Of a stretch of 64,000 bases of DNA, positions 11,759 to 24,822 are shown piece by piece (position 1 is the stretch's first letter; the number at the start of each line of letters is the position of its first letter). The DNA is from a virus. The stretch is taken from positions 1 through 64,000 of the IMG/VR virus record IMGVR_UViG_3300045988_092861. One strand, written 5' to 3'. The notes below the pieces were generated by a model. It ran no database searches and was not told the DNA's origin. It was given only the letters and a program-made list of their open reading frames with translations. Position numbers and translations under genes: made by a program.

Positions 11759-11760
11759 CT

Positions 11761-13197: not shown

Positions 13198-13199
13198 CT

Positions 13200-13439
13200 A
13201 TGAGCAAAGAAAGTATTATTAAGGTTGGTCGGTTCGATAAAGCATCAGACTATCCGATCGGTCAGAAACTTATTATAAACGGAAGAACCTGTGTAGTAAC
13301 AAAACATGGAGATTGTGCTGATTGTTTTGTCGGCGTGCCGAACATACAACGTCGGGACACAGATGTTATCTGTAAAGACTTAGCTTGCACAGCGGTTGAA
13401 AGAAAAGATAAAACGAGTGTTCATTTCAAAGAAATTTAA
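13200..13439 (+). CDS. Hypothetical protein
   Basis: 79-aa ORF, tightly packed with its neighbours. Confidence 0.5.
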   Translation: MSKESIIKVGRFDKASDYPIGQKLIINGRTCVVTKHGDCADCFVGVPNIQRRDTDVICKDLACTAVERKDKTSVHFKEI

Positions 13440-13441
13440 TT

Positions 13442-13654
13442 ATGACGGTGTACTTGATTTATAAAGAAGATGCTTGGCATTCAAAGGGAAGTGGCAAATT
13501 GCTTAGAGTAGCCGATAATCTTGAGAAATGCTACGCAACCGCTGAGGCTAACGGAGCTTCGGAAGACCAGATTAGAGATTTGCGCAATATCGGGCAAAGT
13601 CAATGTAGCGGCAAAAGCTACGAGTTTAACATTGAAACATGGGAGGTTACATAA
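13442..13654 (+). CDS. Hypothetical protein
   Basis: 70-aa ORF, 2 nt after the upstream stop. Confidence 0.5.
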   Translation: MTVYLIYKEDAWHSKGSGKLLRVADNLEKCYATAEANGASEDQIRDLRNIGQSQCSGKSYEFNIETWEVT

Positions 13655-13833
13655 TGAAATTTAAAGTTCATATAGAGGAAACGTTAAGTAAAGACGTTAT
13701 CGTGGATGCAGAAACGAGACAAGATGCTCGTGCCATGATAGAAGAGAAAATCGAGAATGAGGAGATCGTTCTTTCTGCTGATGATTTCACTGGTTGCAGA
13801 ATTATTGAAGTTATGAAGGAAAATGAATATTAA
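13654..13833 (+). CDS. Hypothetical protein
   Basis: TAATG junction. GGGAGG lies upstream. Track ORF 13639 trimmed. Confidence 0.5.
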   Translation: MKFKVHIEETLSKDVIVDAETRQDARAMIEEKIENEEIVLSADDFTGCRIIEVMKENEY

Positions 13834-14011
13834 GACAACAAAGACAGAGTACAAGGAGCTGCTTAAAGTGTTAGAACAATCTGCCAACTTTGTTACAGAC
13901 AAGGCTACAAGAGCCAGAGAGCTTGATATGGCGAGAAGGCTTACAAGATCAAGGTTATTACTGGAGAAAAGAAATGGCAGTTTTGAAGGAGAAGGCAGCG
14001 ATAGTCATTAA
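13823..14011 (+). CDS. Hypothetical protein (uncertain)
   Basis: 62-aa ORF overlapping both neighbours. Confidence 0.3.
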   Translation: MNIKTTKTEYKELLKVLEQSANFVTDKATRARELDMARRLTRSRLLLEKRNGSFEGEGSDSH

Positions 14012-14219
14012 TGGCATCGTGTATGTAGCGGAACCAATGGATGATTGCGAGGATTGTGCGTTTTGTACGGGCTTGGCACAATGCAGCGTAGATTTCATTT
14101 GCATCTCTATGAGAGAAGCATTCCGTAAGGGATTCAGAAACAAGCCTATCGGTTTCAAAAAATGGAAAGGTTATGAAAGGAACAGAAACATTCAAGAAGG
14201 TAATCAAGGCATATCTTGA
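13974..14219 (+). CDS. Hypothetical Cys-rich protein (uncertain start)
   Basis: MAVLKEK...DDCEDCAFCTGLAQC. Internal ATG of track ORF 13890-14219. Confidence 0.35.
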   Translation: MAVLKEKAAIVINGIVYVAEPMDDCEDCAFCTGLAQCSVDFICISMREAFRKGFRNKPIGFKKWKGYERNRNIQEGNQGIS

Positions 14220-14607
14220 CAAACGAGCAGCAGAGGACGAACTGTTCGCAAAGGATTACGCCAAGCCGAACAAGAATATCGATGACTGCTGCGACTTTAT
14301 CATCTCAAAGGTCAAGAAATCCGGAAGACAAGGATTTGATGATGATGAGATTTATGGTCTTGCGGTTCATTATTATAATGAAGAAGAGGTTTCATTCAGC
14401 AAGAACATAAATTGCACCATCGTTACAAACCTCTCAGACCAAACCAAGGAGAGTTTGGAGAAGAAGGCAGAGGAGGAGTTCAAGCAAGCTAAGATTATGG
14501 AGCTCAAAAAGAAGGAGTCTGCAGAGAAGGAGCGCTTGAAGAAGAAAGCCGAGGCCAAGAGAAAGAAGGATGCCGAGGTTGGGCAGTTGAGTTTGTTTGA
14601 TTTTTAA
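14173..14607 (+). CDS. PcfK-like protein
   Basis: FKKVIKAYLDKRAAEDELFAKDYAKPNKNIDDCCDFI...DDEIYGLAVHYYNEEE and the C-terminal QLSLFDF match my memory of PcfK-family proteins from Bacteroides conjugative elements. Confidence 0.75.
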   Translation: MKGTETFKKVIKAYLDKRAAEDELFAKDYAKPNKNIDDCCDFIISKVKKSGRQGFDDDEIYGLAVHYYNEEEVSFSKNINCTIVTNLSDQTKESLEKKAEEEFKQAKIMELKKKESAEKERLKKKAEAKRKKDAEVGQLSLFDF

Positions 14608-14618
14608 TTATGTGAGTT

Positions 14619-15890
14619 ATGAAACCAAGAAATAAGATAGAGCGTGAAGTCGTCAAACTATCCGTTAGAATACCAGAGTTATCTGACAAACAACGTCAGT
14701 GGGCCATCAAAACTTGTATTTCAGAAGACGTCGCTTATAAGTATAGAGACAGATTTTCAAGAGGGTGTTTTTATCTTGTATGTACTTTCAAAGGATGGCA
14801 AGTTCTCAGATATTTTCAGATAAGAGCAAAGTTTCGGTTTTATAAGATTGTTAAAGAAAAAATCTACTTCAAGGAGTGTATGCAACAATGGATGAAAGAC
14901 GGGAAATACGTCTTCCTTGCCAGACAGAGGATTAACGGATATTTCACAGACGCTTTTACTTCAAGCGGGAATTTGGAAGTGAGAACACATACTGTATGGG
15001 GCTACCTTGGCGACCCACGCGAACTTGGATTTGATGGAGTATATTATGCCTCGGTTCAAGACAAGTATAAGTATGCTCTCAGAGACTTCAAGAAAAAAAT
15101 TTCATGTGATGAAATCTTTCGTTCTGTTAATGCTAACACGTACAATGAAACCCTCATGAGACGAGATGTTGATATGTGGAAAATGTGCAAGTATCACGAA
15201 GCAGTCTTTGACAAAGGAAAAATGTCAGCTATTAAGATTGTAGTCAGACACGGAAAGGCAGAATATCTTTATGACAGCTTATGGTGGGATATGCTCGACA
15301 GTATCATATATCTTAAGAAAGATGTACGCAACCCTTCAATAGTTTGCCCGCAGAATCTTCACGATGCACACGACAAGTGGCTTAAGGCTGCTGACAACAA
15401 GAAAAAGAAGATGGAGGACAGAATGACTAAACTGCGCTTGATTGCTGAAGAAAAAATGCAACTCAGGTACCTGGAGCAAGCAGCTAAAGCCGAAGAGGAG
15501 AATAAGAAAAAGGCAGAAGCAATGGCTAATGTTTATATTGCCAGAAGAAAGCAGTTCTTTGACATTGACATAAAGGATGGCGCCATAGACATACAGGTTC
15601 TTAAGTCCGTCCAGGAGTTCTTTGAAGAAGGAAAAGAGATGGGGCACTGTGTATTTAGAAACGGCTATTACGATGTGAACAGAAAGCCGAACTGTCTCAT
15701 ACTTTCTGCCAAGGTAAACGGACAGCGTATGGAGACAATCGAGGTAAACTTAGCCGATGTTACCGTTGTTCAATGCCAGGGCCACAGAAACATAAACTCA
15801 GCTTTCCACGATACTATCCTAAAACTCATCAACGACAATCTATGGCAGATAGAATCTAGGCTTCCGAACAGAGCAAGCAGAACGGCGTAA
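14619..15890 (+). CDS. PcfJ-like protein
   Basis: 423 aa, C-terminal GKEMGHCVFRNGYY...ETIEVNL...VVQCQGHRN. It is the usual partner gene of PcfK. Confidence 0.75.
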   Translation: MKPRNKIEREVVKLSVRIPELSDKQRQWAIKTCISEDVAYKYRDRFSRGCFYLVCTFKGWQVLRYFQIRAKFRFYKIVKEKIYFKECMQQWMKDGKYVFLARQRINGYFTDAFTSSGNLEVRTHTVWGYLGDPRELGFDGVYYASVQDKYKYALRDFKKKISCDEIFRSVNANTYNETLMRRDVDMWKMCKYHEAVFDKGKMSAIKIVVRHGKAEYLYDSLWWDMLDSIIYLKKDVRNPSIVCPQNLHDAHDKWLKAADNKKKKMEDRMTKLRLIAEEKMQLRYLEQAAKAEEENKKKAEAMANVYIARRKQFFDIDIKDGAIDIQVLKSVQEFFEEGKEMGHCVFRNGYYDVNRKPNCLILSAKVNGQRMETIEVNLADVTVVQCQGHRNINSAFHDTILKLINDNLWQIESRLPNRASRTA

Positions 15891-15928
15891 TTTTTTAGTA
15901 TTTTTGACTAAAATTTCCGTTTGATATA

Positions 15929-15960
15929 TTTGCATATATCAAATAATTTTCGTACCTTTG
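15929..15960 (+). promoter_or_regulatory. Cassette B promoter (distal promoter of the modification island)
   Basis: TTTG, N20, TACCTTTG. A perfect 10-bp-arm palindrome TTTGATATAT-TTGC-ATATATCAAA lies at 15920-15943. Confidence 0.65.
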
Positions 15961-16079
15961 CGTATAAGAAGAGCCTATTTTATGGTGTTTTAGGCTATCA
16001 AGCCTGCATATATTCATGTTTTTATGTTAAAATATAGTTAATTTTAGATTTTAAGTATTTAATCATCAAATATTTTATT

Positions 16080-16087
16080 TAAATTTG
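16080..16087 (+). promoter_or_regulatory. Possible proximal -7 box giving a near-leaderless mRNA
   Basis: TAAATTTG ends 5 nt before ATG 16093. The -33 is weak. Confidence 0.3.
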
Positions 16088-16092
16088 CAGCA

Positions 16093-16938
16093 ATGGAATA
16101 CGATTACAGTAAGCTCAGAGAGTACATCAAGCGTTGTAAGTGGCAATGGGCTACTTCTATGATAGACGTTCCTCACGAGTATATCCACAGAGACAAATGC
16201 GCTTTGACACGTGATGAATTCTATTACTTCGTCAGCGCACAAAGAGACAATGGAGTCCACGAAAGATGGGGAAAGTATAATTTCCCTTACCTTTACATTG
16301 ACGGTTATAAGTATTGGACGATGGGTGACCCATTCGAGACTACTTGGATTTTGAACAGACAGAAGGTTTTCAACGAGTTCGATTTCCTTGAGTGGCCAAT
16401 ACCGCGAATCTATTCGAACCAGGAGATGGACGTGATGGCAAGATCTATCATGTTCACGTTCAAGAACAGAAGATTTTTCGAGGCAGGCATCGGAAACGGA
16501 GACTTCGTCGCCTACACCAAGATAAAACCGGAAATGTATTATGGAGTTGATCCTAGCAAGAAAGCAATCAAGCAGTTCAGGGATAAGACCTCTGGTTTTT
16601 TCCGAAGATGTTCTACTATTTCTTTTGAGGAGGCGATAAAGAAATGGATGTCGGCAGACAGCGTTGTGGTTGCTCTTTTCGGTACAGCTTCCTACTTCAT
16701 GCCTCAGTATCTCCGTAAACTGGGCGAGAGTGGTCTGGATTATTGCCTTATGTTCTACAAGGATGACTACACCCCTGCAGAGTTCGAGGAAATGCACCAT
16801 TTCACCTACGACAGAATGCAGCTGAAATCAATGTTCCCGAATTGTAACATATACAATCACAAGAATTTCATAACCATTTCAAGTAAAAAAATCATCTGGC
16901 AACAGACGACATTAGAAAATGAAATATTCCCAGTATGA
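16093..16938 (+). CDS. Two-domain protein: phage-type WxWA...PHEY N-terminal domain plus class-I SAM methyltransferase
   Basis: KWQWATSMIDVPHEYI...YLYIDGYKYWTMG...ILNR, then FEAGIGNGDF, YYGVDPSK, VVALFGTASY. Confidence 0.7.
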   Translation: MEYDYSKLREYIKRCKWQWATSMIDVPHEYIHRDKCALTRDEFYYFVSAQRDNGVHERWGKYNFPYLYIDGYKYWTMGDPFETTWILNRQKVFNEFDFLEWPIPRIYSNQEMDVMARSIMFTFKNRRFFEAGIGNGDFVAYTKIKPEMYYGVDPSKKAIKQFRDKTSGFFRRCSTISFEEAIKKWMSADSVVVALFGTASYFMPQYLRKLGESGLDYCLMFYKDDYTPAEFEEMHHFTYDRMQLKSMFPNCNIYNHKNFITISSKKIIWQQTTLENEIFPV

Positions 16939-17461
16939 TAAAATAGCAAGTAAGTACGACACTTTGTTTCGTGATGAAATGAGTCTCGTTGAGAACCACG
17001 AGGTGGGGGAAAATCTCCCACCTCTCAGTGGTTCAATTCTAGACATCGGATGCGGAACCGGCTTACTTACAGAGATTGCAGAAATCGACCCGCAGGAATA
17101 CTTAGGAGTTGATCCTAGTAAAGGAATGTTGGAGCAGTTCATTAACAAACACCCTGAATATAAGGAAAGGGTAGTCTGCGAGCCTTTCGACGGTAAAAAC
17201 CTGGACTGCAAGAATTTTGATAACATTGTAGCTTTGTTCGGCTCTCCATCTTATCTTTCGCGGTATGCTGTTCTTTCAATATCACGGTGTAAAGCCCGAA
17301 AGTTCTTGATGTTTTACAAGGAGACGTATCACCCCGTCACTTACGAGAAATGCGATGTAGAATTTAGGCATTTCTTCTATTCCAAGAAGGTCTTGTGCAG
17401 TCTTTTCGGTGAAGAAAACGTATCAGAGTATCACAATTATTTAATAGTAAATTGCGTATGA
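16919..17461 (+). CDS. Class-I SAM-dependent methyltransferase (paralog of the 16093 C-terminal domain)
   Basis: ILDIGCGTGLLTE, YLGVDPSKGML, IVALFGSPSY, LMFYKETY. Confidence 0.75.
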   Translation: MKYSQYDKIASKYDTLFRDEMSLVENHEVGENLPPLSGSILDIGCGTGLLTEIAEIDPQEYLGVDPSKGMLEQFINKHPEYKERVVCEPFDGKNLDCKNFDNIVALFGSPSYLSRYAVLSISRCKARKFLMFYKETYHPVTYEKCDVEFRHFFYSKKVLCSLFGEENVSEYHNYLIVNCV

Positions 17462-18117
17462 CATCACAGAAAGGTTTGCGTTATGATGGCAGTATTGATA
17501 AATACCCCATCACAGAAGGCGAGATTTACAGTTTAGGCAATGGTAGCAAGATTACCATTGCCGATATTACTTTGGGGCTTCCAGAGTTTTCAAAGAATGC
17601 CGACTGCGTATTCATCGACCCAGCAGGAAGCAAAGGAGTCCTCAAAGCGTATTACACCAAGGCGGAGAAGCAATGCCCAGTTGACAATTTTGATGAGTTC
17701 GTTGCCCACATCAAGAGGTGCATCGAGCAGATTAATCCGGACAGACTATTCGTCGAGTGCTTCTACAGAAATAAGAAGCAGTTGGTTCCTATGGTAGAAT
17801 CGTTATTCCCTCATGTAAAAATCTACGAGAACACCTATTATCATAAGCCAGATTGCAAGTGTTGGATTATCCAAGGCTCCAAGCAGGCAGAAGACTGGGG
17901 ACTCCAGGGAATGGATGAATGGGATGCGGTGTTCAAGATTTGTAAGGATGTTCCGTTCAGCTCTATCACAGACTTCTTCATGGGTCAAGGACTTGTTGCC
18001 CAAGCAGCCTATGCTGCTGGCAAGGTTTTCTATGGTAGCGATATGAACAGAAATCGTTTGGCTGTAGCCATCAGCAAGGTTGCCAAGCGAGGTGGAGAAT
18101 GGACAGTAACTAAATAA
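17458..18117 (+). CDS. Beta-class (N4/N6 DNA-MTase-like) methyltransferase fold with a non-canonical catalytic motif
   Basis: The C-terminal DFFMGQGLVAQAAYAAGKVFYGSDMN fits motif I (FxGxG). The N-terminal DCVFIDPAG sits where (D/S)PPY is expected. The track start 17452 is TTG and the ATG at 17458 gives an ATGA overlap. Confidence 0.6.
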   Translation: MTSQKGLRYDGSIDKYPITEGEIYSLGNGSKITIADITLGLPEFSKNADCVFIDPAGSKGVLKAYYTKAEKQCPVDNFDEFVAHIKRCIEQINPDRLFVECFYRNKKQLVPMVESLFPHVKIYENTYYHKPDCKCWIIQGSKQAEDWGLQGMDEWDAVFKICKDVPFSSITDFFMGQGLVAQAAYAAGKVFYGSDMNRNRLAVAISKVAKRGGEWTVTK

Positions 18118-18125
18118 TTACGCAT

Positions 18126-18860
18126 ATGATTAAACTCTCTCAGATTATCATCCTCAATGTTCCGAAGCGAGAACGTGAGGGTAACTACCTTAAGAAGTTG
18201 ATAGAGACCAGCACGAAGCCCTATGGCATTCCTGTCAGTATCTCTATGGACCGAGGTAAGGGTCTTTGGGATAATTATTCCCAAGCGTTGACGCAAGAGG
18301 TAGCGGAAGGAACCCATCGTATGATTATCCATGATGACATTACCTTCGACCGTAACATTCTTGCCAAGATTTTACATATTCTCTCTTTTGCTCCAGAAAA
18401 CAACGTTATCAGTTTCTACAATCCAACAAATGGTGACTATACTGATTGTTACGCAAAGGGCAAGCACGTTATCTCTACAAAGACAAACTTCTGGCTGCAG
18501 GCAAGCGTATATCCAAACGACCTTGCCAAGGATTTTGTTGAAACATCAAACAAGATGACGGATGATCAGACACGTTATGATGATTCGCGTCTTAAGGCAT
18601 ACCTTCAGGCAAAGGGTATCGACCTTTACGCCATCGTTCCCGGTCTGGTTCAGCATTTCGGTGCATACAGAAGCACGTTCAACAATCCAGGCGCAGTAGG
18701 TGGCATTCCTCGAAACAGCAAGACCTACGACAACCAGTTTGATGTAGAGTCTGTAGATTGGGAGAGTGAGTTCAAGAATCCTTATTTGGCTAAGTCAAGC
18801 AAGGATTGGGTTAAGGAAATAGTAAACAAGGAATTTCTCGATGAATACAAAAAACTCTAA
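18126..18860 (+). CDS. GT-A-like glycosyltransferase (tentative)
   Basis: HRMIIHDDITF (DxD-like) and a later LVQHFG. No TM segment or signal peptide. Confidence 0.5.
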   Translation: MIKLSQIIILNVPKREREGNYLKKLIETSTKPYGIPVSISMDRGKGLWDNYSQALTQEVAEGTHRMIIHDDITFDRNILAKILHILSFAPENNVISFYNPTNGDYTDCYAKGKHVISTKTNFWLQASVYPNDLAKDFVETSNKMTDDQTRYDDSRLKAYLQAKGIDLYAIVPGLVQHFGAYRSTFNNPGAVGGIPRNSKTYDNQFDVESVDWESEFKNPYLAKSSKDWVKEIVNKEFLDEYKKL

Positions 18861-19299
18861 GGAAAATCTAGCCTTGAAATTGGCGAAGGACAATATCGAG
18901 GTTGAGCAGGTGAAGCCGCTGCATATAGAATACGTTAAGGTTGACGACATTTATCCGAATGACTATAACCCTAATACGCATGATGCAGACAGTTTTGACC
19001 TTCTCATCAAATCGTTGCTCTATTTCGGATTTACTCAGCCTATCGTTGTAAACCGCTCGACGATGCAGATCGTGGACGGAGAGAACAGATACCGTGCCGC
19101 CTGCGTCATTGGATATGAGATGGTTCCTGTATGCTTTGTTGATTTTGACGAAGAGAAGTTGAGATATGCAACAATCATGCACAATGCCGCTCGCGGTCAC
19201 AACAACAATGAAATGATGGGCAGACTTAAGGATTACCTTGACACCCATTTCAGCAATTCCAGCGACAAGGTATTATTAAACAATAGAAATAAGAAATGA
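18841..19299 (+). CDS. ParB N-terminal/Srx-like domain protein (1 of 4)
   Basis: VDDIYPNDYNPNTH...FGFTQPIVVN...IVDGENRYRAA. Confidence 0.75.
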   Translation: MNTKNSKENLALKLAKDNIEVEQVKPLHIEYVKVDDIYPNDYNPNTHDADSFDLLIKSLLYFGFTQPIVVNRSTMQIVDGENRYRAACVIGYEMVPVCFVDFDEEKLRYATIMHNAARGHNNNEMMGRLKDYLDTHFSNSSDKVLLNNRNKK

Positions 19300-20489
19300 T
19301 ATTTTACAGTGACAAAAACGTTTATGAGGCAGCTCTTGAAAGATTCAGATACATCTTTCGGGAGTTTTATGGTAAGCGTAAGATTGTCGTGACGATGTCG
19401 GGAGGAAAGGACTCTACCGTGGTTCTCAACCTTGCTCACGAGGTTATGAAGGAGATGGGAATTGAAAAGATTCCCGTCCTCTTCCTAGACCAAGAGGCAG
19501 AGACTCCAATGACTATCGAGTATATACGATACATCATGCACTTGCCGTGGGTTGAGCCATATTGGATTCAGTCATACTTCCAGGAATGGAATGCCTCAAA
19601 GGGAGAATGGTTCAATGTATGGGGGCCTGGAGAAAAATGGATTCGTGAGAAGGAACCAGATTCTTATGGAGATTTGGAAATCCCTCACAATCAGTATTTC
19701 TCCAAGACCCTCGATCAGGTACACAGAATGCTCTTTGGCAAAGACTACCTAACTTTGGGCGGTGTCCGTATCGAGGAATCGCCGGCACGTTTGTCTGGTC
19801 TTACCAGAGGCGAATGTCTTCCTGGCATAACATGGGGAGGTGGTGGCGGATATTATAAAGACGGCACACCGAGAAGTCTGGTGCTCTACCCTATTTGGGA
19901 TTGGAAGGTTCATGATGTATGGTATTACATCTTTAGCAACAAGCTTCCGTACTGCAAGCTCTATAACTATCAGTTCACGCAGAAGCCACTCAGAGCATGC
20001 CGAGTTAGTTCCCTCATCCATGAGCAGGCTATCCACGACTTAGGTTTCATCAAGGAGGTTGATCCATGGTTCTACGACAAGCTGGTGCGAAGAGTGGCAA
20101 ACGTCAATACATCTGTACACGTCTTTAACGAAGTGGCAACATACTGCTACAACTTGCCACCTTATTTCAAGGATTGGGATGAATACGTTGATTATCTCGC
20201 AGACAATCTTTGTGAAGACAAGAAGAATGCGGAGACTATCAAGAAAGGCTACCGTTCCGCCAAGAAGAGAAATGTAGCTAAAGCCGGTCATTGCCAGGAG
20301 TGTATTGATTATGTCATACATCAGATTGGCTATACAAGTGCCGTCTGCGTCATTGCGGAAGATTTCGGCATGAAGCGCATTCAGAGTGTAGAGCGTTCTT
20401 TGCGTCAGTATTTGAGCGACAATTATGTTAAAATAGAAAAAGCTAATAAGGAATATGAATCTTCAAGAGAACATCAAGAAGGAGTTTGA
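19296..20489 (+). CDS. PAPS-reductase-family PP-loop enzyme (DndC/IbrA-like)
   Basis: PP-loop VVTMSGGKDSTVVLNLA. The long C-terminal extension resembles the DUF3440-type tail of IbrA-like proteins. Confidence 0.8.
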   Translation: MIFYSDKNVYEAALERFRYIFREFYGKRKIVVTMSGGKDSTVVLNLAHEVMKEMGIEKIPVLFLDQEAETPMTIEYIRYIMHLPWVEPYWIQSYFQEWNASKGEWFNVWGPGEKWIREKEPDSYGDLEIPHNQYFSKTLDQVHRMLFGKDYLTLGGVRIEESPARLSGLTRGECLPGITWGGGGGYYKDGTPRSLVLYPIWDWKVHDVWYYIFSNKLPYCKLYNYQFTQKPLRACRVSSLIHEQAIHDLGFIKEVDPWFYDKLVRRVANVNTSVHVFNEVATYCYNLPPYFKDWDEYVDYLADNLCEDKKNAETIKKGYRSAKKRNVAKAGHCQECIDYVIHQIGYTSAVCVIAEDFGMKRIQSVERSLRQYLSDNYVKIEKANKEYESSREHQEGV

Positions 20490-21117
20490 TGCTGCCAAGG
20501 ATAAGGTGCAGTTTTTGAACGACCTCAGAAAGTATATCAGTTCCTTATCTCCGGAGAAAGTCAACCCAGTAGATTGCGTGCTTTGGGTTGACAAGGATAT
20601 GGTTGTAGCCAACAACTACAACCCTAACCACGTAGCAGATAAGGAAATGCGTCTTCTCTATACATCCGTGAGGGAAGACGGTTACACAATGCCTATCGTT
20701 ACCATTTGGGACGAGAAGCTGCAGAAGTATGTAATCATCGACGGTTTCCACAGAAACCTCGTTATTCGCAAGTTTGCGGACATCAATGAGCGATGTGGCG
20801 GAAAGCTGCCGATTGTAGTCCTAGACAAGGACATTGACCAGCGTATGGCATCAACCGTAAGACACAATCGTGCCCGTGGAAGTCACTCTGTCGATGGAAT
20901 GGTAAACATCGTTTTCAATATGCTCAGAGATGGTGTGTCTGAGCGTGAGATTTGCGAAAAGGTAGGTCTGGAGCAGAAAGAGCTTGTAAAGCTTAAGTTT
21001 GTTACCGGTTTCGCCAAGATTTTCAAGAACTATAAGTACAATGCGGCTATCGAAAAGGTTGTCGACGAGAGACGCGTAGCAAGAGAGACAGCCAAGAAGA
21101 AGGAGGATAAGAAATGA
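20455..21117 (+). CDS. ParB/Srx-like domain protein, IbrB-like (2 of 4)
   Basis: VANNYNPNHV...DGYTMPIVT...IIDGFHRNLV...VRHNRARGSH. Confidence 0.75.
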   Translation: MNLQENIKKEFDAAKDKVQFLNDLRKYISSLSPEKVNPVDCVLWVDKDMVVANNYNPNHVADKEMRLLYTSVREDGYTMPIVTIWDEKLQKYVIIDGFHRNLVIRKFADINERCGGKLPIVVLDKDIDQRMASTVRHNRARGSHSVDGMVNIVFNMLRDGVSEREICEKVGLEQKELVKLKFVTGFAKIFKNYKYNAAIEKVVDERRVARETAKKKEDKK

Positions 21118-21746
21118 AAGTAAAGGTAGTTAAACTCAGTGAAATCTTTCCTTACTATGACAACCCTCGTGACAATACGAATGCGGTTGAGCCTACGAAG
21201 GAGAGTATCAAGCGTTTTGGATACGTTAAGCCTATCCTCGTTGATAAGGCAGGTGTAATCATTGCCGGTCACACAAGATATGTGGCTGCTTACCAGTTGG
21301 GAATGGAGTTCGTTCCTGTCGTTTACTCGGATATGGACGACGAAATGGCAAAGAAGTACCGCATCCTCGATAACAAGCTGGCAGAGAAATCTTCCTTTGA
21401 TGAAGACCAGCTTTTGGAGGAATTGCGCAACATGGAGGTTCCTACAGATATGCAGGCATTCTTCTTTGAGGACATCAATCAGATGCTCAACTTCTCTCTC
21501 GACAGCATCAACCAGCAGGCAGAAGAGTATGGTGGCTTCCAGAATGACTATTCTCAGGTTGATGATGAGAACTTCGAGACTCCATCAAATGAAGAGGCTG
21601 GCGAAAGCGAGGAAGCTCCTTCGGATGAGGAGGAAGACCCTGCCAAGGATTTGTTCGTTCTCAAAGAGCGCGAGGACGGTTCACATTATATGAAGGTCGT
21701 TTGCCCATATTGTGGAAATATGGAAACAATAGAAATTGAGGATTAA
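21114..21746 (+). CDS. ParB/Srx-like domain, acidic linker and C-terminal zinc ribbon (3 of 4)
   Basis: YYDNPRDN...FGYVKPILVD...IIAGHTRYVAA; EEAGESEEAPSDEEED; CPYCGN. Confidence 0.75.
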   Translation: MKVKVVKLSEIFPYYDNPRDNTNAVEPTKESIKRFGYVKPILVDKAGVIIAGHTRYVAAYQLGMEFVPVVYSDMDDEMAKKYRILDNKLAEKSSFDEDQLLEELRNMEVPTDMQAFFFEDINQMLNFSLDSINQQAEEYGGFQNDYSQVDDENFETPSNEEAGESEEAPSDEEEDPAKDLFVLKEREDGSHYMKVVCPYCGNMETIEIED

Positions 21747-21751
21747 CAGGT

Positions 21752-22369
21752 ATGGAAGAGATTAAGATTAATGACAAGGTAATTGAGTTACCTATTGACA
21801 GTATCGTGCCTCATGACGGTTCGCACAAGACCGACGAGACGGCAGTACAGGCAATCATGCAGTCCATCAAGGATTTCGGCATCACTCAGCCTATTTCCGT
21901 TGACAAGAACAACGTAATTGTAACAGGTAACGGTGTGTATAAGGCAGCTAAGGCATTGGGAATGGATAAGGTTCCCTGCATTCGTCTTGACTATCTGACT
22001 GATGAGCAGATTAAGCAGTATAGAATCGCTGATGACAAGACGTCCGAGTTCGCCACTTGGAACGAGAAGAAGCTTCGCAAGGAGCTCTCCTATCTCGGTG
22101 ATCCTAACAGCATTCAGTTTGCTTTCGATGAGAGCATTGCCGGTATGCTTGGACTCAATGCTAAGCCAAAGGAACAGAAACCTGCGGCCGCACCTTCCAA
22201 GGCTGAGACTAACCATACGGCTAAGAAGGTCGTAACCGAAGCCCAGAAGGACCAGAAGTTCAAGGAGGAAATGAAGGGCGTTGAGGAGAATATCCAGGTC
22301 AAGCCTTCAGAGTATTATGAGTATAATTGTTCCGCTTGCGGTAAACTGGTAAAAGTTAAGAAGCCATGA
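21752..22369 (+). CDS. ParB/Srx-like domain plus C-terminal zinc ribbon (4 of 4; Arg patch degenerate)
   Basis: FGITQPISVD...VTGNGVYKAAKALG...DDKTSE; CSACGK. Confidence 0.7.
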   Translation: MEEIKINDKVIELPIDSIVPHDGSHKTDETAVQAIMQSIKDFGITQPISVDKNNVIVTGNGVYKAAKALGMDKVPCIRLDYLTDEQIKQYRIADDKTSEFATWNEKKLRKELSYLGDPNSIQFAFDESIAGMLGLNAKPKEQKPAAAPSKAETNHTAKKVVTEAQKDQKFKEEMKGVEENIQVKPSEYYEYNCSACGKLVKVKKP

Positions 22370-22902
22370 CAGATGAATCATCACAGCCGAAAGTAAAGTC
22401 TTTCGTACATAGAATTCCCAATCCTGTTGGAAGACCATACAAGATTAAGTCTTCTCAGGAATTATGGGATAAGTTTGTAGCTTACTGTGATGATGTTGAA
22501 AACGACCCTTGGCAGCAAAAGACTGGTAGCAATTCCATTGCAGGTGGCAGCGGCAAATCCACAAATTCCATGAGACAAGAGGTAAGGGTTTTCAGAAGAG
22601 CCTATACCCTTGTCGGATTTTGTGCTTTCTGTGGCATCGTTCAGAAATGGGCGGATTTCAAGAGAGGTAATCTTAAGAGACCAGGCTTTGAGCAGGTGAT
22701 AACACAGATTGAGAATGTCGTGATGGCCCAGCAGATTGATGGCGCCATGCTTCATCAGTTTGATTCCAGCATTGTTGCAAGGCTCAACGGATTGGCAGAC
22801 AAGCATATTCAAGAAGTAACAGGCAAGGATGGTGAGGACTTCAAGTTCCCTAAACTATCCTTGGATGATATTAAAGAATTACAGAAGATAAATGGACTTT
22901 GA
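22366..22902 (+). CDS. terS: Terminase small subunit
   Basis: GRPYKIKSSQELWDKFVAYCDDVENDPW, typical of the N-terminus of phage small terminases. Overlaps the large-subunit gene. Confidence 0.6.
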   Translation: MTDESSQPKVKSFVHRIPNPVGRPYKIKSSQELWDKFVAYCDDVENDPWQQKTGSNSIAGGSGKSTNSMRQEVRVFRRAYTLVGFCAFCGIVQKWADFKRGNLKRPGFEQVITQIENVVMAQQIDGAMLHQFDSSIVARLNGLADKHIQEVTGKDGEDFKFPKLSLDDIKELQKINGL

Positions 22903-24370
22903 GAAACAACGTTTTCTCCATAAGCAGTTAGTGGCTTCATCCCTACTGCAATTCACTACCAAGATGTTCGCCTATACTGCCCGACGTGAGTATGTTATAG
23001 GCGAACATCATAGGATTATATGTGATGCGCTCATGGATGTTATAAGAGGAAAGACGAATAAGCTGATTATCAACATCAGCCCACGTTATGGAAAGACCCT
23101 CTTGTGCTCACAGATGTTCATCGCATATGGTCTTGCGCTGAACCCTGCTTCAAAGTTTCTACATATATCTTATTCCGGAAGTCTCGTCCAAGACAACTCA
23201 ATGGCGGTCAAGGACACGATAACTTCCGCATATTTCCAAACATTATTTCCGAATGTCAAAATCCGAAAGAACGATAACACAAGATCAAAATGGAGCACAA
23301 CGGCAGGTGGTGGTGAGTATGCTACATCTACCTTGGGTCAGATCACAGGTTTTGGTGCAGGTCAGCCAGACTGGACCGAAGAAGACATAAAGAACATGGA
23401 TAAGTTCATGGCTACGTTCAACCCTGGTCACTTTTCGGGAGCCATAGTTATCGATGACCCTTTACGACCAGATGATGCCTTGTCTGATAATGTAAGAGAG
23501 TCTATCAACAGACGCTTCGAGACAACCATCCGTAACCGTGTAAACTCGCGTCACACGCCAATTATCATCGTCATGCAAAGATTGCACGAGCACGATTTGT
23601 GCGGTTACCTTCAAGAGATTGAGCCAAATGAGTGGAAGGTTGTTTCCCTCCCGGTAATACAGACAGACGAGGACGGAAAGGAGCGAGCATTGTGGCCATG
23701 GAAGCATACACTGGAAGAGCTGTATAAAATCAAGCATGCCAGCGAGTTCGTATTTGAGACACAGTACATGCAGAACCCTACCCCTATGGAAGGTCTTATG
23801 TACCATGCCTTCAGAACATACGACGAGCTGCCGGACAGAAGGTATGCAAGAATGATTGGCAACTACACCGACTCGGCAGATACTGGTTTCGACTTCCTTT
23901 GCTCTATATGCTTCGATGCACATGATGACGGTTACTATGTTACCGATGTTCTATACACTAAGCGACCGATGGAATACACGGAGCCAGCGCAAGCCAATAT
24001 GGTTAAGCGTAATCAGACAGACGTGTGCTTCGTCGAGAGTAACAACGGTGGACGCTCTTATGCCCGCAATGTTGAGCGCATAACAAGGGAACACGGAAAC
24101 AGAATCACCCAGTTCGTAACGTTCACGCAATCGAAGAACAAACAGATTAGAATTTTCACTCGCTCCAGCGAGGTAAATAATAAATTAGTATTCCCTTCTA
24201 ATTGGGAGCAGTTGTGGCCGGAGTTTGCCCACGACATGAAATCCTACAGAAAGGAAGGATATAACGCCCACGATGATGCGCCGGACGCTTGTACGGGCAT
24301 CATAGAGAAGTGCGAGGAGTGGCTTAACAATGCTACCGATGCACAGCTCAGGCAAGGAGGATTCTTGTAA
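22892..24370 (+). CDS. terL: Terminase large subunit
   Basis: Walker A-like ISPRYGKTLL and Walker B IVIDDP. The C-terminal nuclease half has acidic motifs (NAHDDAPDA). Confidence 0.8.
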   Translation: MDFEKQRFLHKQLVASSLLQFTTKMFAYTARREYVIGEHHRIICDALMDVIRGKTNKLIINISPRYGKTLLCSQMFIAYGLALNPASKFLHISYSGSLVQDNSMAVKDTITSAYFQTLFPNVKIRKNDNTRSKWSTTAGGGEYATSTLGQITGFGAGQPDWTEEDIKNMDKFMATFNPGHFSGAIVIDDPLRPDDALSDNVRESINRRFETTIRNRVNSRHTPIIIVMQRLHEHDLCGYLQEIEPNEWKVVSLPVIQTDEDGKERALWPWKHTLEELYKIKHASEFVFETQYMQNPTPMEGLMYHAFRTYDELPDRRYARMIGNYTDSADTGFDFLCSICFDAHDDGYYVTDVLYTKRPMEYTEPAQANMVKRNQTDVCFVESNNGGRSYARNVERITREHGNRITQFVTFTQSKNKQIRIFTRSSEVNNKLVFPSNWEQLWPEFAHDMKSYRKEGYNAHDDAPDACTGIIEKCEEWLNNATDAQLRQGGFL

Positions 24371-24452
24371 TTTCATATTTTTTAACTATGCTCGTAAGGC
24401 GTTTGCTCGTGAGAGTAAGCGCCTTAACTATTTGAATATCAATCTATTGTAA

Positions 24453-24597
24453 TTTAGTATTTTTAACTAAAATAATTATTAGTATATTTGCATATATCAA
24501 ATAATTTTCGTATCTTTGCATATAGATAAAAGGTAGTACTTTTGACTATTCAGAGCCTACCTTACAAGTTGAACCAATTAAAATTATAAAGATTATG
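24453..24597 (+). repeat. Promoter-leader cassette, copy C
   Basis: Near-identical to copies A and E. Confidence 0.9.
24487..24518 (+). promoter_or_regulatory. Cassette C promoter
   Basis: TTTG, N20, TATCTTTG. Confidence 0.65.
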
Positions 24598-24822
24598 AAG
24601 ACAATTAAAGTTACCAATGCTCCAAAGTCAATGATTATGGTACTCGTTGAGAATGACAATAGATTCGTTTTTAACAGCGGTGACATATTTATTATGGGAA
24701 CGAGCAACGTAGAGAAGTTCAAGAAATACATAAAAACAAAAGGCATATCTTCCTCTGAGATTGATAGCCTCTCCTACGAAGTCGTTGATATTGACGAGGT
24801 AAGTGATTTGTATAATTTCTAA
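24595..24822 (+). CDS. Hypothetical protein
   Basis: 75-aa ORF directly after the conserved leader. Confidence 0.5.
   Translation: MKTIKVTNAPKSMIMVLVENDNRFVFNSGDIFIMGTSNVEKFKKYIKTKGISSSEIDSLSYEVVDIDEVSDLYNF

What the first reader, a model, noticed from the sequence alone, without database searches (positions are those of the whole stretch)
16093..22369. Nine-gene DNA-modification-like island (3 MTase folds, GT-A-like, DndC/IbrA-type PP-loop enzyme, 4 tandem ParB/Srx paralogs) directly upstream of terminase
The genes are co-directional and mostly overlapping. Overlaps are at 16919-16938, 17458-17461, 18841-18860, 19296-19299, 20455-20489, 21114-21117 and 22366-22369. They read as one operon behind promoter 15929-15960 that runs into terS.

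Seen directly:
- Two class-I SAM-MTase paralogs.
- A beta-class DNA-MTase fold with FIDPAG in place of DPPY.
- A DxD/His GT-A-like protein (MIIHDD...LVQHFG).
- A PP-loop enzyme (VVTMSGGKDSTVV).
- Four ParB N-terminal-domain proteins.

Established knowledge:
- DndC, a PP-loop enzyme of the PAPS-reductase family, acts in DNA phosphorothioation.
- PAPS-reductase-like plus ParB-like pairs are known as IbrA/IbrB, with unresolved biochemistry.
- ParB/Srx folds bind nucleotides (CTP).

Inference: this is a multi-step covalent modification of the phage genome, sulfur-, methyl- and/or sugar-containing, installed around packaging to evade restriction-type defence. I do not know of a characterised system with this composition.
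Basis: partly seen in the sequence, partly recalled or inferred. Interest (0 to 1): 0.85.

Follow-up and report, generated by a model that had tools for sequence, protein, structure and literature searches.

The report
ParB-scaffolded IbrA/IbrB enzyme cassette before terminase
A common gut (Segatella copri) phage carries, in one operon with its DNA-packaging genes, the fullest known version of a widespread but biochemically unsolved "IbrA/IbrB" cassette; it most likely decorates phage DNA chemically to escape bacterial defences, and probably not with sulfur.

Summary
Nine co-directional, overlapping genes (16093-22369) run into terS/terL. They sit between two copies of a repeated Bacteroidota-type promoter (15929 and 24487), and all are under strong purifying selection (dN/dS 0.01-0.11).

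Most domain calls hold:
- two paralogous class-I SAM methyltransferases;
- a divergent N6/N4 DNA-methyltransferase relative with DPAG in place of DPPW;
- a GT-A-fold protein with an invariant DD motif;
- an IbrA-type PP-loop enzyme (PAPS_reduct + DUF3440);
- four ParB-fold proteins.

The interpretation needs revision.
1. The island is not unique. It is the richest form of a widespread phage cassette: ParB, a new ~90-aa domain (g1N), variable enzymes, IbrA, IbrB.
2. IbrA-family proteins have no conserved cysteine, so DndC- or CysH-like sulfur chemistry is disfavoured.
3. ParB domains occur fused to the GT-A-like enzyme and to DNA methyltransferases elsewhere. The four ParBs are therefore probably DNA-targeting partners of the enzymes.

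The best reading is ParB-guided covalent modification of phage DNA, adenylation-dependent with methyl and glycosyl steps. No step is shown biochemically. The host is Segatella copri. I rate it a new variant of a known, uncharacterised kind, interest about 0.6.

The parts
15920..15960 (+). Bacteroidota-type promoter (-33 TTTG at 15929, -7 TACCTTTG at 15953-15960), overlapped by a perfect 10-bp inverted repeat (15920-15929 / 15934-15943) that could be an operator
   Evidence: the consensus occurs 19 times against 1.7 expected. The identical 32-mer is also at 10526 and 32770, and with one mismatch at 24487; inverted repeat I2 is 100% complementary. The sigma-70 scan found no more sites than in shuffled sequence.
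16093..16938 (+). g1: N-terminal ~90-aa uncharacterised domain 'g1N' (about residues 1-95) fused to a class-I SAM methyltransferase domain (GxGxG motif as EAGIGNG)
   Evidence: The g1N model has pLDDT 92 with no PDB fold match. Standalone g1N ORFs occur in 21 of 51 IbrA loci. dN/dS 0.086.
16919..17461 (+). g2: class-I SAM-dependent methyltransferase of small-molecule/RNA type, paralog of the g1 C-terminal domain
   Evidence: Pfam Methyltransf_25 at 34.7 bits (cutoff 27), plus Methyltransf_12 and _11. phrog_4752 'tRNA methyltransferase' at 3.9e-7. 30% identity to g1.
17458..18117 (+). g3: short beta-class N6/N4 DNA-methyltransferase relative. Motif I is retained (DFFMGQG). Motif IV has degenerated to DPAG; relatives have DPPW or DPPC
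   Evidence: It is a conserved partner of IbrA/IbrB in other loci (L166, L167, L245, L249, L250). dN/dS 0.020.
18126..18860 (+). g4: GT-A-fold (nucleotide-diphospho-sugar-transferase-like) enzyme with invariant D70-D71 (HDD) and Q176-H177 (QHxG). No Pfam family
   Evidence: A profile search found 1025 representative proteins at E<=1e-3. It is fused to ParB in P0357 and P0289. No homolog in 50,697 deposited phage genomes.
18841..19299 (+). g5: short ParB N-terminal-domain protein, closest of the four to canonical ParB/Spo0J (DGENRYRAA against GERRFRAA). It lies immediately downstream of g4 in the three loci with a close g4 homolog (L160, L161/L162, L165)
   Evidence: Pfam ParB_N 48.4 bits. PDB 6sdk Spo0J 9.5e-11, alignment. 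g4-g5 adjacency in L160, L161 and L165.
19296..20489 (+). g6: IbrA-type PP-loop ATP-pyrophosphatase/adenylyltransferase-like enzyme (PAPS_reduct + DUF3440). It has SGGKDST, G156/R158/E161/R165 and the RVSSLIHE motif, but no conserved cysteine
20455..21117 (+). g7: IbrB-type ParB/Srx-fold protein (DGFHR motif), the obligate partner of IbrA
   Evidence: phrog_2159 at 6.4e-63. A g7-like gene is adjacent to IbrA in 50 of 51 dereplicated loci, in the order IbrA then IbrB in 49 of 50.
21114..21746 (+). g8: ParB of the 'ParB-methyltransferase' type (AGHTRY), with an acidic linker and a C-terminal CxxCG motif
   Evidence: phrog_620 at 2e-41, phrog_498 at 4e-31, PADLOC MTase_II at 7e-19. Alignment A7. 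The same ParB type is fused to g4-like domains.
21752..22369 (+). g9: paralog of g8 that has lost the superfamily's active-site arginine (TGNGVYKAA) in all orthologs examined. It keeps the C-terminal CxxCG motif and is probably a non-catalytic partner
   Evidence: dN/dS 0.022.
22366..24370 (+). terS (22366-22902) and terL (22892-24370). Inferred to be co-transcribed with the island, since the next promoter copy is at 24487
   Evidence: GP3_package at 8e-14 and phrog_606 at 1e-20. Promoter positions. terL was assigned from its position and size and from its homologs in related loci: the L165 terL homolog carries an intein, and the L160 terL-like gene carries Terminase_6C.

Best explanation
The island is the most elaborate known form of a widespread phage cassette built around the IbrA/IbrB pair. 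It sits in a temperate Segatella (Prevotella) copri phage and is inferred, from promoter positions, to be transcribed with terS/terL from a repeated phage promoter.

Shown by computation:
- the gene content and the conservation of the genes;
- the modular architecture: ParB, g1N, variable enzymes, IbrA, IbrB;
- the fusions between ParB domains and enzymes.

Inferred mechanism:
1. The ParB-fold proteins bind or clamp phage DNA in a nucleotide-dependent way, or nick it. They act as targeting subunits for the enzymes encoded next to them: g5 with the GT-A-like g4, g7 (IbrB) with IbrA, and g8/g9 with the DNA-methyltransferase-like g3.
2. IbrA is a cysteine-less PP-loop enzyme whose closest solved relatives are adenylyltransferases. 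It uses ATP to adenylate a position on DNA, or a group to be attached to DNA, so that a non-sulfur nucleophile can substitute.
3. g3 contributes SAM binding and base flipping, with an altered target pocket.
4. g4 adds a sugar or another nucleotide-activated group.
5. The g1 and g2 methyltransferases methylate the adduct.

The net result would be covalently hypermodified phage DNA that resists restriction-type defences.
For: - Operon anatomy and promoters.
- Purifying selection on every gene, including the motif-degenerate g3 and g9.
- Among 51 dereplicated IMG/VR IbrA loci, IbrB is adjacent in 50, extra ParBs in 35, g1N-like in 29, g3-like methyltransferase in 20 and g4-like in 11. The commonest order is ParB, g1N, IbrA, IbrB, with the enzymes inserted between g1N and IbrA.
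- Fusion evidence: a g4-like GT-A domain joined to a g8-type ParB in P0357 and P0289 (hhalign probability 99%).
- g5, g8 and g9 match the ParB domain of ParB-methyltransferase fusions (phrog_498, PADLOC MTase_II). One such fusion, B. cereus ParB-MTase, nicks DNA (PMC3592412, PMC5512222).
- The g3 family belongs to the DNA amino-methyltransferases.
- A relative carries LuxS inside the island, which fits heavy SAM turnover.
- g1 homologs lie in defence or mobile-element contexts.
- A phage PAPS-reductase-like gene is reported to promote evasion of a host Dnd system (Piel et al. 2022, as cited in PMC13551039; I could not read the original).
- ParB-like partners of DNA-modifying enzymes have precedent: DndB (PMC10853773) and DpdB (PMC12839542).
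Against: - No chemistry is shown, and the substrate could be something other than DNA.
- IbrA/IbrB were first described as activators of prophage gene expression.
- ParB/Srx folds also include protein and amino-acid kinases (sulfiredoxin, SerK). g7 and g9 give weak SerK hits.
- g3 has lost the aromatic residue of motif IV, and g9 its active-site arginine. Some components may therefore be structural only.
- The g4 match to GT-A is at fold level only (TM 0.42-0.50), and that fold also includes nucleotidyltransferases.
- Many loci have only IbrA and IbrB, so the accessory enzymes need not act on the same product.
- The pairing of particular ParBs with particular enzymes is inferred from gene adjacency and from fusions seen elsewhere.
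Confidence: 0.45

Rival explanations
1. Packaging or late-expression accessory module. IbrB and the other ParB proteins bind or nick phage DNA near the packaging site, or act as co-activators of late genes (the original IbrA/IbrB phenotype). They would assist terminase rather than modify DNA covalently; the methyltransferases and the GT-A protein would be unrelated morons.
For: - The island lies directly upstream of terS/terL and is inferred to share their transcript.
- In Flavobacterium phage FCL-2 the IbrB-IbrA pair sits between terL and portal.
- Close relatives keep IbrA, IbrB, ParB, ParB, terS, terL in that order (L184, L185, L189).
- A prophage ParB-MTase next to terS has nicking activity (PMC3592412).
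Against: - Related cassettes lie next to SNF2 helicases, with no close terminase homolog detected nearby (L166, L167).
- The enzymes are not random neighbours. g3-, g4- and g1N-like genes recur specifically with IbrA/IbrB across distant phages and are fused to ParB.
- A PP-loop enzyme has no known role in packaging.
Confidence: 0.2
2. Anti-defence that does not mark phage DNA. The enzymes would consume or alter nucleotides or signalling molecules, or modify host DNA, RNA or proteins. They might also sabotage a host modification-dependent system such as Dnd or BREX type 4. The ParB/Srx proteins would act as NTPases or kinases.
For: - Weak SerK-like hits for g7 and g9.
- g2 resembles small-molecule and tRNA methyltransferases.
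- The literature suggests that ParB proteins in conflict systems degrade nucleotides (PMC10853773, PMC5512222).
- A phage PAPS reductase is reported to aid evasion of Dnd (via PMC13551039).
- g1 homologs occur in defence-island-like contexts.
Against: - g5 and g8 align with the DNA-clamp ParB Spo0J and keep the key arginine.
- g3 belongs to a DNA methyltransferase family.
- ParB-methyltransferase fusions act on DNA.
Confidence: 0.2
3. Dnd/Ssp-like phosphorothioation or other sulfur insertion into phage DNA by a DndC-like enzyme.
For: - PP-loop similarity to DndC, SspD and BrxP (PADLOC 1e-8 to 1e-11; NCBIfam DndC 1.4e-8). The match is restricted to about residues 11-81, the PP-loop stretch.
- BREX type 4 uses a PAPS reductase for phosphorothioation (PMC11185695, from its title and abstract only).
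Against: - No conserved cysteine in 57 IbrA-family proteins, whereas DndC has a distinctive cysteine dyad (PMC10853773).
- The DndC model scores 34 bits against a cutoff of 290.
- None of the nine island proteins matched a PADLOC model for cysteine desulfurase (DndA), DndD or DndE.
- The best solved relatives are FAD synthase and CysD-type adenylyltransferases.
Confidence: 0.05
4. Auxiliary metabolic gene: a CysH-type PAPS reductase boosting host sulfur assimilation. This is how phage 'PAPS reductases' are often annotated.
For: Pfam PAPS_reduct hit. The annotation is common in the literature (bioRxiv 10.1101/2021.01.05.425418 and 10.64898/2026.02.18.706556).
Against: - No conserved catalytic cysteine.
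- cysH models score 17-30 bits against cutoffs of 154-254.
- Obligate pairing with ParB-fold IbrB (50 of 51 loci).
- No sulfur-assimilation family matched any of the nine island proteins.
Confidence: 0.02

Closest known systems
IbrA/IbrB pairs of prophages and phages (E. coli ECOR-9 IbrAB island; Flavobacterium phages 6H, 1H and FCL-2; PHROGs 2302 and 2159)
   Same: g6 has the PAPS_reduct + DUF3440 architecture and g7 is the adjacent ParB-fold partner. Identity to the Flavobacterium phage proteins annotated IbrA is 31-35%. The pair often lies in or beside the packaging module.
   Different: Here the pair is embedded with three more ParB paralogs, a GT-A-like enzyme, a DNA-methyltransferase-like protein and two SAM methyltransferases. 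The gene order is IbrA then IbrB, as in 49 of 50 IMG/VR loci; the Flavobacterium phages have IbrB then IbrA. The biochemistry of IbrA/IbrB themselves is unknown. Homology to the E. coli proteins was not tested directly.
ParB-methyltransferase fusion proteins of prophages (for example B. cereus Bce_0392; phrog_498; PADLOC MTase_II PDLC03229)
   Same: g8, g9 and g5 match the ParB domain of these fusions (E 1e-31 to 1e-24). g3 is a beta-class N6/N4 methyltransferase relative. Both lie beside terminase genes. The fused ParB domain nicks DNA non-specifically (PMC3592412).
   Different: ParB and methyltransferase are separate genes here. The methyltransferase motif IV is DPAG rather than DPPY/W. The ParBs carry an extra C-terminal CxxCG motif. 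One paralog (g9) lacks the active-site arginine.
Dnd / Ssp / BREX type 4 phosphorothioation (DndC, SspD, BrxP, with the ParB-like DndB)
   Same: A PP-loop enzyme of the PAPS-reductase superfamily combined with a ParB-superfamily protein in a DNA-conflict context.
   Different: There is no conserved cysteine in IbrA, and no cysteine desulfurase, DndD ATPase or DndE was detected among the island proteins. Scores are far below the family cutoffs. IbrA has DUF3440 instead of the DndC-specific regions.
Dpd 7-deazaguanine DNA modification (DpdA with the ParB-like ATPase DpdB)
   Same: Precedent for a ParB-like NTPase that helps a base-modifying enzyme act on DNA (PMC12839542).
   Different: No TGT/DpdA or preQ0 pathway family matched any island protein. 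The QueC hit to g6 is only the PP-loop (E=0.019).
Phage DNA glycosyltransferases and hypermodification clusters (T4 alpha/beta-GT, base J JGT, thymidine hypermodification pathways). This comparison is from my own knowledge.
   Same: Multi-enzyme, post-replicative decoration of phage DNA for anti-restriction. A GT-A-like fold has been proposed for JGT.
   Different: No hydroxymethylase, kinase or TET/JBP family matched any island protein. g4 belongs to no described glycosyltransferase family. Its link to DNA rests on ParB fusions and gene adjacency only.

Membership tests
IbrA/IbrB cassette | PAPS_reduct PP-loop domain followed by DUF3440 in one protein | tested here: met
   Pfam PF01507 at 63.6 bits and PF11922 at 25.7 bits (cutoff 25). 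phrog_2302 at 3.7e-67 over residues 4-354.
IbrA/IbrB cassette | Adjacent, co-directional ParB/Srx-fold partner (IbrB) | tested here: met
   g7 overlaps g6 by 35 nt. phrog_2159 at 6.4e-63. A partner is present in 50 of 51 dereplicated loci.
IbrA/IbrB cassette | Direct homology to the E. coli ECOR-9 IbrA and IbrB proteins | not tested
   I did not retrieve the E. coli sequences. The link is through Flavobacterium phage proteins annotated 'putative IbrA' at 31% identity.
DndC / DNA phosphorothioation | Conserved cysteines (cysteine dyad, Fe-S ligands) for sulfur transfer | tested here: not met
   57 IbrA-family sequences have 41 columns at >=90% conservation, none of them Cys. The highest Cys column is 53%. 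See also A4.
DndC / DNA phosphorothioation | Score above the family cutoff, and DndA/D/E partners present | tested here: not met
   TIGR03183 scores 34.1 bits against a cutoff of 290.4. PADLOC DndC hits cover only residues 25-81. No DndA, DndD or DndE hits among the island proteins.
CysH PAPS/APS reductase (sulfur assimilation gene) | C-terminal catalytic cysteine and a full-length match | tested here: not met
   cysH-type models score 16.9-30 bits against cutoffs of 154-254 and match only about residues 194-227. No conserved Cys.
Beta-class N6/N4 DNA methyltransferase (PF01555) | Motif I (FxGxG) SAM-binding loop at the C-terminus | tested here: met
   DFFMGQG at 172-178. D172, G176 and G178 are invariant in A2. 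PF01555 matches residues 170-204.
Beta-class N6/N4 DNA methyltransferase (PF01555) | Catalytic motif IV (D/N/S)PP(Y/F/W) | tested here: not met
   The window protein has DPAG. Relatives show DPPW (distant clade), DPPC (middle clade) and DPAG (this clade). The window protein scores 16.7 bits, below the 26.7 cutoff.
GT-A glycosyltransferase | GT-A Rossmann-like fold | tested here: inconclusive
   Every listed Foldseek hit is a GT-A-type (nucleotide-diphospho-sugar transferase) fold: glycosyltransferases first, sugar-nucleotide pyrophosphorylases lower down. Probability is 1.0 for the top hits with E down to 7e-5, but TM-scores are only 0.42-0.50 and identity 8-13%.
GT-A glycosyltransferase | DxD metal/nucleotide-sugar motif after the central strand | tested here: met
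   D70-D71 (HDD/QDD) are invariant in 24 sequences and kept in the ParB fusions and in the L165 paralog.
GT-A glycosyltransferase | Membership of a described glycosyltransferase sequence family, and glycosyl-transfer activity | tested here: not met
   No Pfam hit for the window protein. One of 24 members hits Glycos_transf_2, at E=0.069. Activity cannot be tested here.
ParB/Srx superfamily | ParB N-terminal domain above the Pfam threshold | tested here: met
   g5 48.4, g8 35.3 and g9 32.2 bits (cutoff 26.3). g7 scores 15.8 bits but matches phrog_2159 at 6e-63.
ParB/Srx superfamily | Active-site arginine of the GxxR (GERR) box | tested here: met
   g5 GENR, g7 GFHR, g8 GHTR. It is not met in g9 (GNGV) or in any g9 ortholog examined.
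ParABS partition system | ParA partner, an HTH plus C-terminal dimerisation domain, and a plasmid lifestyle | tested here: not met
   No ParA lies in or next to the island. g5, g8 and g9 are 152-210 aa with no HTH match. The close relative is integrated in a 1.6-Mb S. copri contig.
Class-I SAM methyltransferase | GxGxG SAM-binding motif and a Pfam match | tested here: met
   g2 passes Methyltransf_25, _12 and _11. g1 scores 14.5 bits itself, but its motif is nearly invariant in A6 and several family members carry PF13649 or PF08242.

The most novel reading that the evidence does not exclude
A previously undescribed kind of phage DNA hypermodification. ParB-fold clamps or nickases deliver a cysteine-less PP-loop adenylating enzyme (IbrA), a new GT-A-like transferase, a re-tooled base-flipping methyltransferase scaffold and two methyltransferases to DNA, producing a methylated, glycosylated (non-sulfur) adduct. 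The ~90-aa g1N domain, which has no structural relative, would be a new core component. This would finally give the widespread IbrA/IbrB pair a biochemical function, in highly prevalent human-gut Segatella copri phages.
Probability: 0.3. Interest if true: 0.85.

Novelty: new variant of a known kind. Interest (0 to 1): 0.6.

Why it matters
IbrA/IbrB-type pairs ('phage PAPS reductase' plus 'ParB-like protein') occur in hundreds of deposited phage genomes. They are routinely mis-read as sulfur-metabolism genes or partition proteins, and their biochemistry has been open since about 2002.

This locus is the richest version found here. It comes with a cultivable host lineage (Segatella copri N016-9 carries a 92%-identical prophage) and more than 100 near-identical gut metagenome contigs. 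That makes the question directly testable by nucleoside mass spectrometry and long-read kinetics on induced phage.

Three comparative results narrow the hypotheses to a ParB-guided, non-sulfur DNA-directed chemistry:
- there is no conserved cysteine in IbrA;
- ParB domains are fused to GT-A-like and methyltransferase enzymes;
- a new g1N domain belongs to the core cassette.

If confirmed, this would add a new class of phage DNA modification and a new role for ParB-fold proteins, relevant to phage-host dynamics of a major gut commensal.

Tried and rejected
- Megablast of 16000-24400 against 50,697 deposited phages found no match. tblastn of g4 against the same set found none.
- PDB sequence searches for g3, g4 and g7 gave nothing significant. 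The short 'TLP-IPT' hit to g4 residues 189-216 falls in the low-confidence loop of the model, and I ignored it.
- The sigma-70 promoter and terminator scan was no better than shuffled sequence. I replaced it with the Bacteroidota consensus.
- g1N gave no Pfam or PHROG match. It had no PDB fold match (best E 0.19) and one unnamed BFVD homolog.
I redid it with database proteins.
- I could not read Piel et al. 2022. Its claim is cited second-hand.
- No tRNAs in the window.
- I rejected the plasmid-partition, CysH metabolic-gene and DndC readings (see rival explanations and the membership table).
- The antisense ORFs overlapping the island (for example 16075-16800 on the minus strand) are probably spurious. 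I did not check them against any family library; the + strand genes there have homologs and low dN/dS.

Full report
**1. Observation**

The nine + strand ORFs are present exactly as described:

| Gene | Coordinates | Length |
|---|---|---|
| g1 | 16093-16938 | 281 aa |
| g2 | 16919-17461 | 180 aa |
| g3 | 17458-18117 | 219 aa from the ATG; an in-frame TTG lies at 17452 |
| g4 | 18126-18860 | 244 aa |
| g5 | 18841-19299 | 152 aa |
| g6 | 19296-20489 | 397 aa |
| g7 | 20455-21117 | 220 aa |
| g8 | 21114-21746 | 210 aa |
| g9 | 21752-22369 | 205 aa |

They are followed by terS (22366-22902; GP3_package 8e-14, phrog_606) and terL (22892-24370). All seven stated overlaps are exact.

The rest of the window is a tailed phage:
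- a replication module: Sak4, helicases, DnaD-like, DnaB-like;
- portal and a MuF-like minor head protein on the minus strand;
- major head protein at 46078-47385;
- a 1620-aa ORF (50493-55355) that I take, from size alone, to be the tape-measure protein.

**2. Transcription unit and host**

That pattern occurs 19 times in the window against 1.7 expected, and none of 100 shuffles reached 19.

The identical 32-mer TTTGCATATATCAAATAATTTTCGTACCTTTG recurs at 10526, 15929 and 32770, and with one mismatch at 24487. The island plus terS/terL is therefore bracketed by two copies of one phage promoter. A perfect 10-bp inverted repeat overlaps the -33 element. A sigma-70 scan was uninformative.

A 99%-identical g4 lies in Segatella copri N016-9, on a 1.6-Mb contig. 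That prophage is about 92% identical in nucleotide sequence across 11739-24601.

More than 100 IMG/VR contigs carry g4 and g6 at 87-100% protein identity, most of them above 94%. One g1 homolog is named as a Prevotella sp. protein. The element is therefore a prevalent temperate gut phage of Segatella/Prevotella.

**3. Selection**

I compared the window with the S. copri prophage. dN/dS is 0.011-0.111 for g1-g9 and about 0.01 or lower for terS and terL. This includes g3 (0.020) and g9 (0.022), whose canonical catalytic motifs are degenerate. All nine are maintained genes.

**4. The individual proteins**

- **g2.** A bona fide class-I SAM methyltransferase (Methyltransf_25 at 34.7 bits). Its nearest named families are small-molecule and tRNA methyltransferases.
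- **g1.** Its C-terminal domain is a paralog of g2 (30% identity over 140 aa, E=9e-18). Its N-terminal ~90 residues are a separate domain (see section 5).
- **g3.** It belongs to a small family (67 clusters), of which 18 of 23 sampled members hit PF01555 N6_N4_Mtase (best 8e-7). Motif I (D-x-x-M-G-Q-G-L) and a downstream GTE/GSD-x-N...RL motif are conserved. At the motif IV position, distant members have FxDPPW, an intermediate clade DPPC and the window's clade DPAG. The aromatic residue that stacks on the flipped base has been lost under purifying selection. This suggests an altered target pocket or a non-catalytic, SAM- or DNA-binding role.
- **g4.** No Pfam or PHROG match, and no homolog in 50,697 deposited phages. 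An AlphaFold2 model (pLDDT 87.9, pTM 0.87) retrieves only GT-A-type (nucleotide-diphospho-sugar transferase) fold proteins. The top hits are glycosyltransferases: Mimivirus R699, PmHS2, vaccinia H3, B4GALNT1, SpsA and PBCV-1 A64R. Sugar-nucleotide pyrophosphorylases (GMPPA/B, UDP-glucose pyrophosphorylase, AGPase) appear lower in the list. Probability is about 1.0, but TM-scores are only 0.42-0.50. D70-D71 (the 'HDD' DxD position) and Q176-H177 are invariant. A profile search of 1.84 billion representatives found 1025 relatives at E<=1e-3, mostly about 230 aa.
- **g6.** IbrA-type: PAPS_reduct plus DUF3440, phrog_2302 at 3.7e-67. It is 31-36% identical to the 'IbrA / PAPS reductase / adenylyltransferase' genes of Flavobacterium and Microbacterium phages; lower-ranked hits include Mycobacterium and Streptococcus phages.
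- **g7.** IbrB-type ParB/Srx protein (phrog_2159 at 6e-63).
- **g5.** The most canonical ParB N-domain. It matches Spo0J (6sdk) at 9.5e-11, with DGENRYRAA aligned to GERRFRAA.
- **g8 and g9.** Paralogs of the ParB type that is fused to DNA methyltransferases (phrog_498 at 1e-31; PADLOC MTase_II at 1e-19). Both end in a conserved Y..xCxxCG motif. g9 and all its orthologs examined have lost the superfamily's active-site arginine (GN[GA][VIL]Y against GH[TAS]R in g8).

**5. The island is one variant of a widespread modular cassette**

Distant g4 and g3 homologs are embedded in the same kind of locus:
- L160: methyltransferase, g4, ParB, N6_N4 methyltransferase, IbrA, IbrB ... terL.
- L161: g1-like, four GT-A-like paralogs, ParB, IbrA, IbrB, ParB, ParB, terS, terL.
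- L165: g1, g2, g3, LuxS, g4, g5, GT-A-like paralog, IbrA, IbrB, ParB, ParB, terS, terL.
- L166 and L167: SNF2 helicase ... IbrA, IbrB, g3.

I then fetched 80 IbrA loci from IMG/VR using an IbrA alignment and scanned their ORFs with HMMs of the window's genes. Counts among the 51 dereplicated diverse loci:

| Neighbour of IbrA | Loci (of 51) |
|---|---|
| IbrB adjacent | 50 |
| Extra ParB | 35 |
| g1-like ORF | 29 (21 of them ~90-aa ORFs matching only the g1 N-terminus) |
| g3-like methyltransferase | 20 |
| g4-like protein | 11 |
| g2-like methyltransferase | 4 |

Only 31 of the 51 loci had at least 3 kb of upstream sequence, so these counts are lower bounds.

IbrA precedes IbrB in 49 of 50 loci. 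The commonest architecture is ParB, g1N, IbrA, IbrB, with the variable enzymes inserted between g1N and IbrA. In 16 of 29 cases a ParB lies immediately upstream of g1N.

g1N has the consensus FTFAKTMPxxPHxY...GYKYWTMG...IINRAK. It has no Pfam or PHROG match. Its model is confident (pLDDT 92.3), yet it has no PDB fold match (best E 0.19) and only one unnamed viral homolog in BFVD. It is an undescribed core component.

**6. Evidence on what the cassette acts on**

(a) Fusions. P0357 (461 aa) is a g4-like GT-A domain plus a g8-type ParB with the CxxCG tail. P0289 (716 aa) is two g4-like domains plus the same ParB. hhalign probability is 99%, with the HHLVIQDD and LVEHLG motifs conserved. The same ParB type is fused to N6/N4 methyltransferases, and the B. 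cereus prophage ParB-MTase next to terS nicks DNA (PMC3592412, PMC5512222). ParB thus recurs as an adaptor for different DNA-directed enzymes. That explains four ParB genes: roughly one per enzyme, plus a degenerate partner.

(b) g3 belongs to a DNA amino-methyltransferase family.

(c) ParB-like proteins assist DNA modification in the Dnd (DndB) and Dpd (DpdB) systems (PMC10853773, PMC12839542).

(d) A phage PAPS-reductase-like gene is reported to promote evasion of a host Dnd system (Piel et al. 2022, as cited in PMC13551039; I could not read the original).

(e) g1 homologs outside phages lie in conflict contexts: directly after a GmrSD_N protein near a WYL regulator (L170), and on a Prevotella Rep3/relaxase element beside MAD7 and PP2C (L168, L169).

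**7. What IbrA probably is not**

An 8-sequence alignment (29-77% identity) has 47 invariant columns and no cysteine among them. In 57 IbrA-family proteins, 41 columns are at least 90% conserved: SGGKDST, D65, E67, G156/R158/E161/R165, YP..DW, RVSSxxHE and others. No cysteine column exceeds 53%, and none of the window protein's eight cysteines is conserved.

DndC has a distinctive cysteine dyad (PMC10853773). From my own knowledge, CysH has a C-terminal catalytic cysteine.

DndC, SspD, BrxP and CysH models match only the PP-loop or a short motif, far below their cutoffs. None of the nine island proteins matched a PADLOC model for DndA, DndD or DndE.

The best solved relatives are FAD synthase (FMN adenylyltransferase) and CysD. 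IbrA is therefore best read as an ATP-pyrophosphatase or adenylyltransferase that activates a substrate for a non-thiol nucleophile.

**8. Best explanation and its status**

Shown by computation:
- the operon and its conservation;
- the modular architecture;
- the ParB-enzyme fusions;
- the fold and family assignments;
- the absence of conserved cysteines.

Inferred:
- ParB proteins load on or nick phage DNA and recruit the adjacent enzymes.
- IbrA adenylates a DNA position or a transferable group.
- g4 transfers a sugar or another nucleotide-activated group.
- g3 provides base flipping and SAM binding.
- g1 and g2 methylate the adduct.
- The outcome is hypermodified DNA that resists restriction.

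I put about 0.45 on 'covalent modification of phage DNA'.

Rivals and my probabilities:
- Packaging or late-gene accessory, including the original IbrAB co-activator phenotype: about 0.2.
- Anti-defence acting on nucleotides or host molecules: about 0.2.
- Dnd-like phosphorothioation: about 0.05.
- CysH-type metabolic gene: about 0.02.
- The remainder is unassigned.

Timing 'around packaging' rests only on inferred co-transcription with terminase. Related cassettes beside SNF2 helicases show that linkage to terminase is frequent but not obligatory.

**9. Novelty and score**

The kind (IbrA/IbrB plus ParB plus methyltransferase near terminase) is known from annotation and has been flagged as puzzling in several papers (PMC4541368; bioRxiv 10.1101/2021.01.05.425418 and 10.64898/2026.02.18.706556). 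Its biochemistry is unsolved.

New here:
- the full composition, with the GT-A-like enzyme, the SAM-methyltransferase pair, and three ParBs beyond IbrB (four in all);
- recognition of the g1N core domain;
- the ParB-GT-A fusions;
- the cysteine-less nature of the IbrA family.

I rate it a new variant of a known (uncharacterised) kind, with interest 0.6. It is directly testable, because a cultivable S. copri strain carries a 92%-identical prophage.

Noticed in passing
window 10526-10557, 15929-15960, 24487-24518, 32770-32801 (also 24515, 28458, 32798): One 32-nt Bacteroidota-type promoter is repeated almost verbatim at four places. At 15920-15943 it is overlapped by a perfect palindrome (TTTGATATAT/ATATATCAAA). 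A second tandem promoter (TTTGCATATAGA...TAnnTTTG) follows at three sites. This looks like a phage-specific regulon with a shared operator.
   Followed up: partly
window 29520-32678 (- strand): The portal gene (31263-32678) and the MuF-like minor head gene (29520-31088) are on the minus strand. They are separated from terL by about 5 kb of small ORFs. The minor head protein also matches a PHROG annotated 'Bxa ADP-ribosyl transferase' (6.9e-56).
   Followed up: no
window 21690-21746 and 22310-22369; P0357 and P0289 C-termini: g8- and g9-type ParB proteins end in a conserved Y..xCxxCG motif, after an acidic or low-complexity linker. The ParBs fused to GT-A-like domains keep it. It may be a half zinc-ribbon or a docking peptide.
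   Followed up: partly
window 21752-22369 (g9); orthologs in L161, L165, L184, L185, L189: g9 has lost the ParB/Srx active-site arginine (GNGV in place of GHTR) in every ortholog examined, yet evolves under dN/dS 0.02. It is a conserved pseudo-enzyme paralog and probably pairs with g8.
   Followed up: yes
L165:9646-10140 and L165:15673-18276: A relative with g3 at 70% protein identity has a LuxS (S-ribosylhomocysteinase) gene inserted between g3 and g4. Its terL carries an intein with a LAGLIDADG homing endonuclease.
   Followed up: no
L170:8186-10795; L168:9460-10804: g1 homologs (46-50% identity) occur outside phages. One lies directly after a 604-aa GmrSD_N (DUF262, ParB-like) protein near a WYL regulator. 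Another is on a Prevotella Rep3/relaxase element next to MAD7 and PP2C genes. The g1 methyltransferase family may therefore also serve host defence or mobile-element systems.
   Followed up: partly
window 16093-16380 (g1 residues ~1-95): The g1N domain gives a confident model (pLDDT 92) but has no PDB fold match and no Pfam or PHROG family. It occurs as a standalone ~90-aa gene, often right after a ParB gene, in many IbrA/IbrB loci.
   Followed up: yes
window 14173-15890: Two genes upstream of the island's promoter are worth a look: phrog_7445 (144 aa), and a 423-aa protein whose likely counterpart by position and size in L161 (427 aa) weakly matches LPD29, a 'polyvalent protein' domain. They may be anti-defence genes, and they belong to the preceding transcription unit.
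   Followed up: no
L251 (Segatella copri N016-9, NZ_JAPDUQ010000001.1:513813-532544): A 92%-identical prophage is integrated in a cultivated S. copri strain. This gives both a host assignment and an experimental handle.
   Followed up: partly
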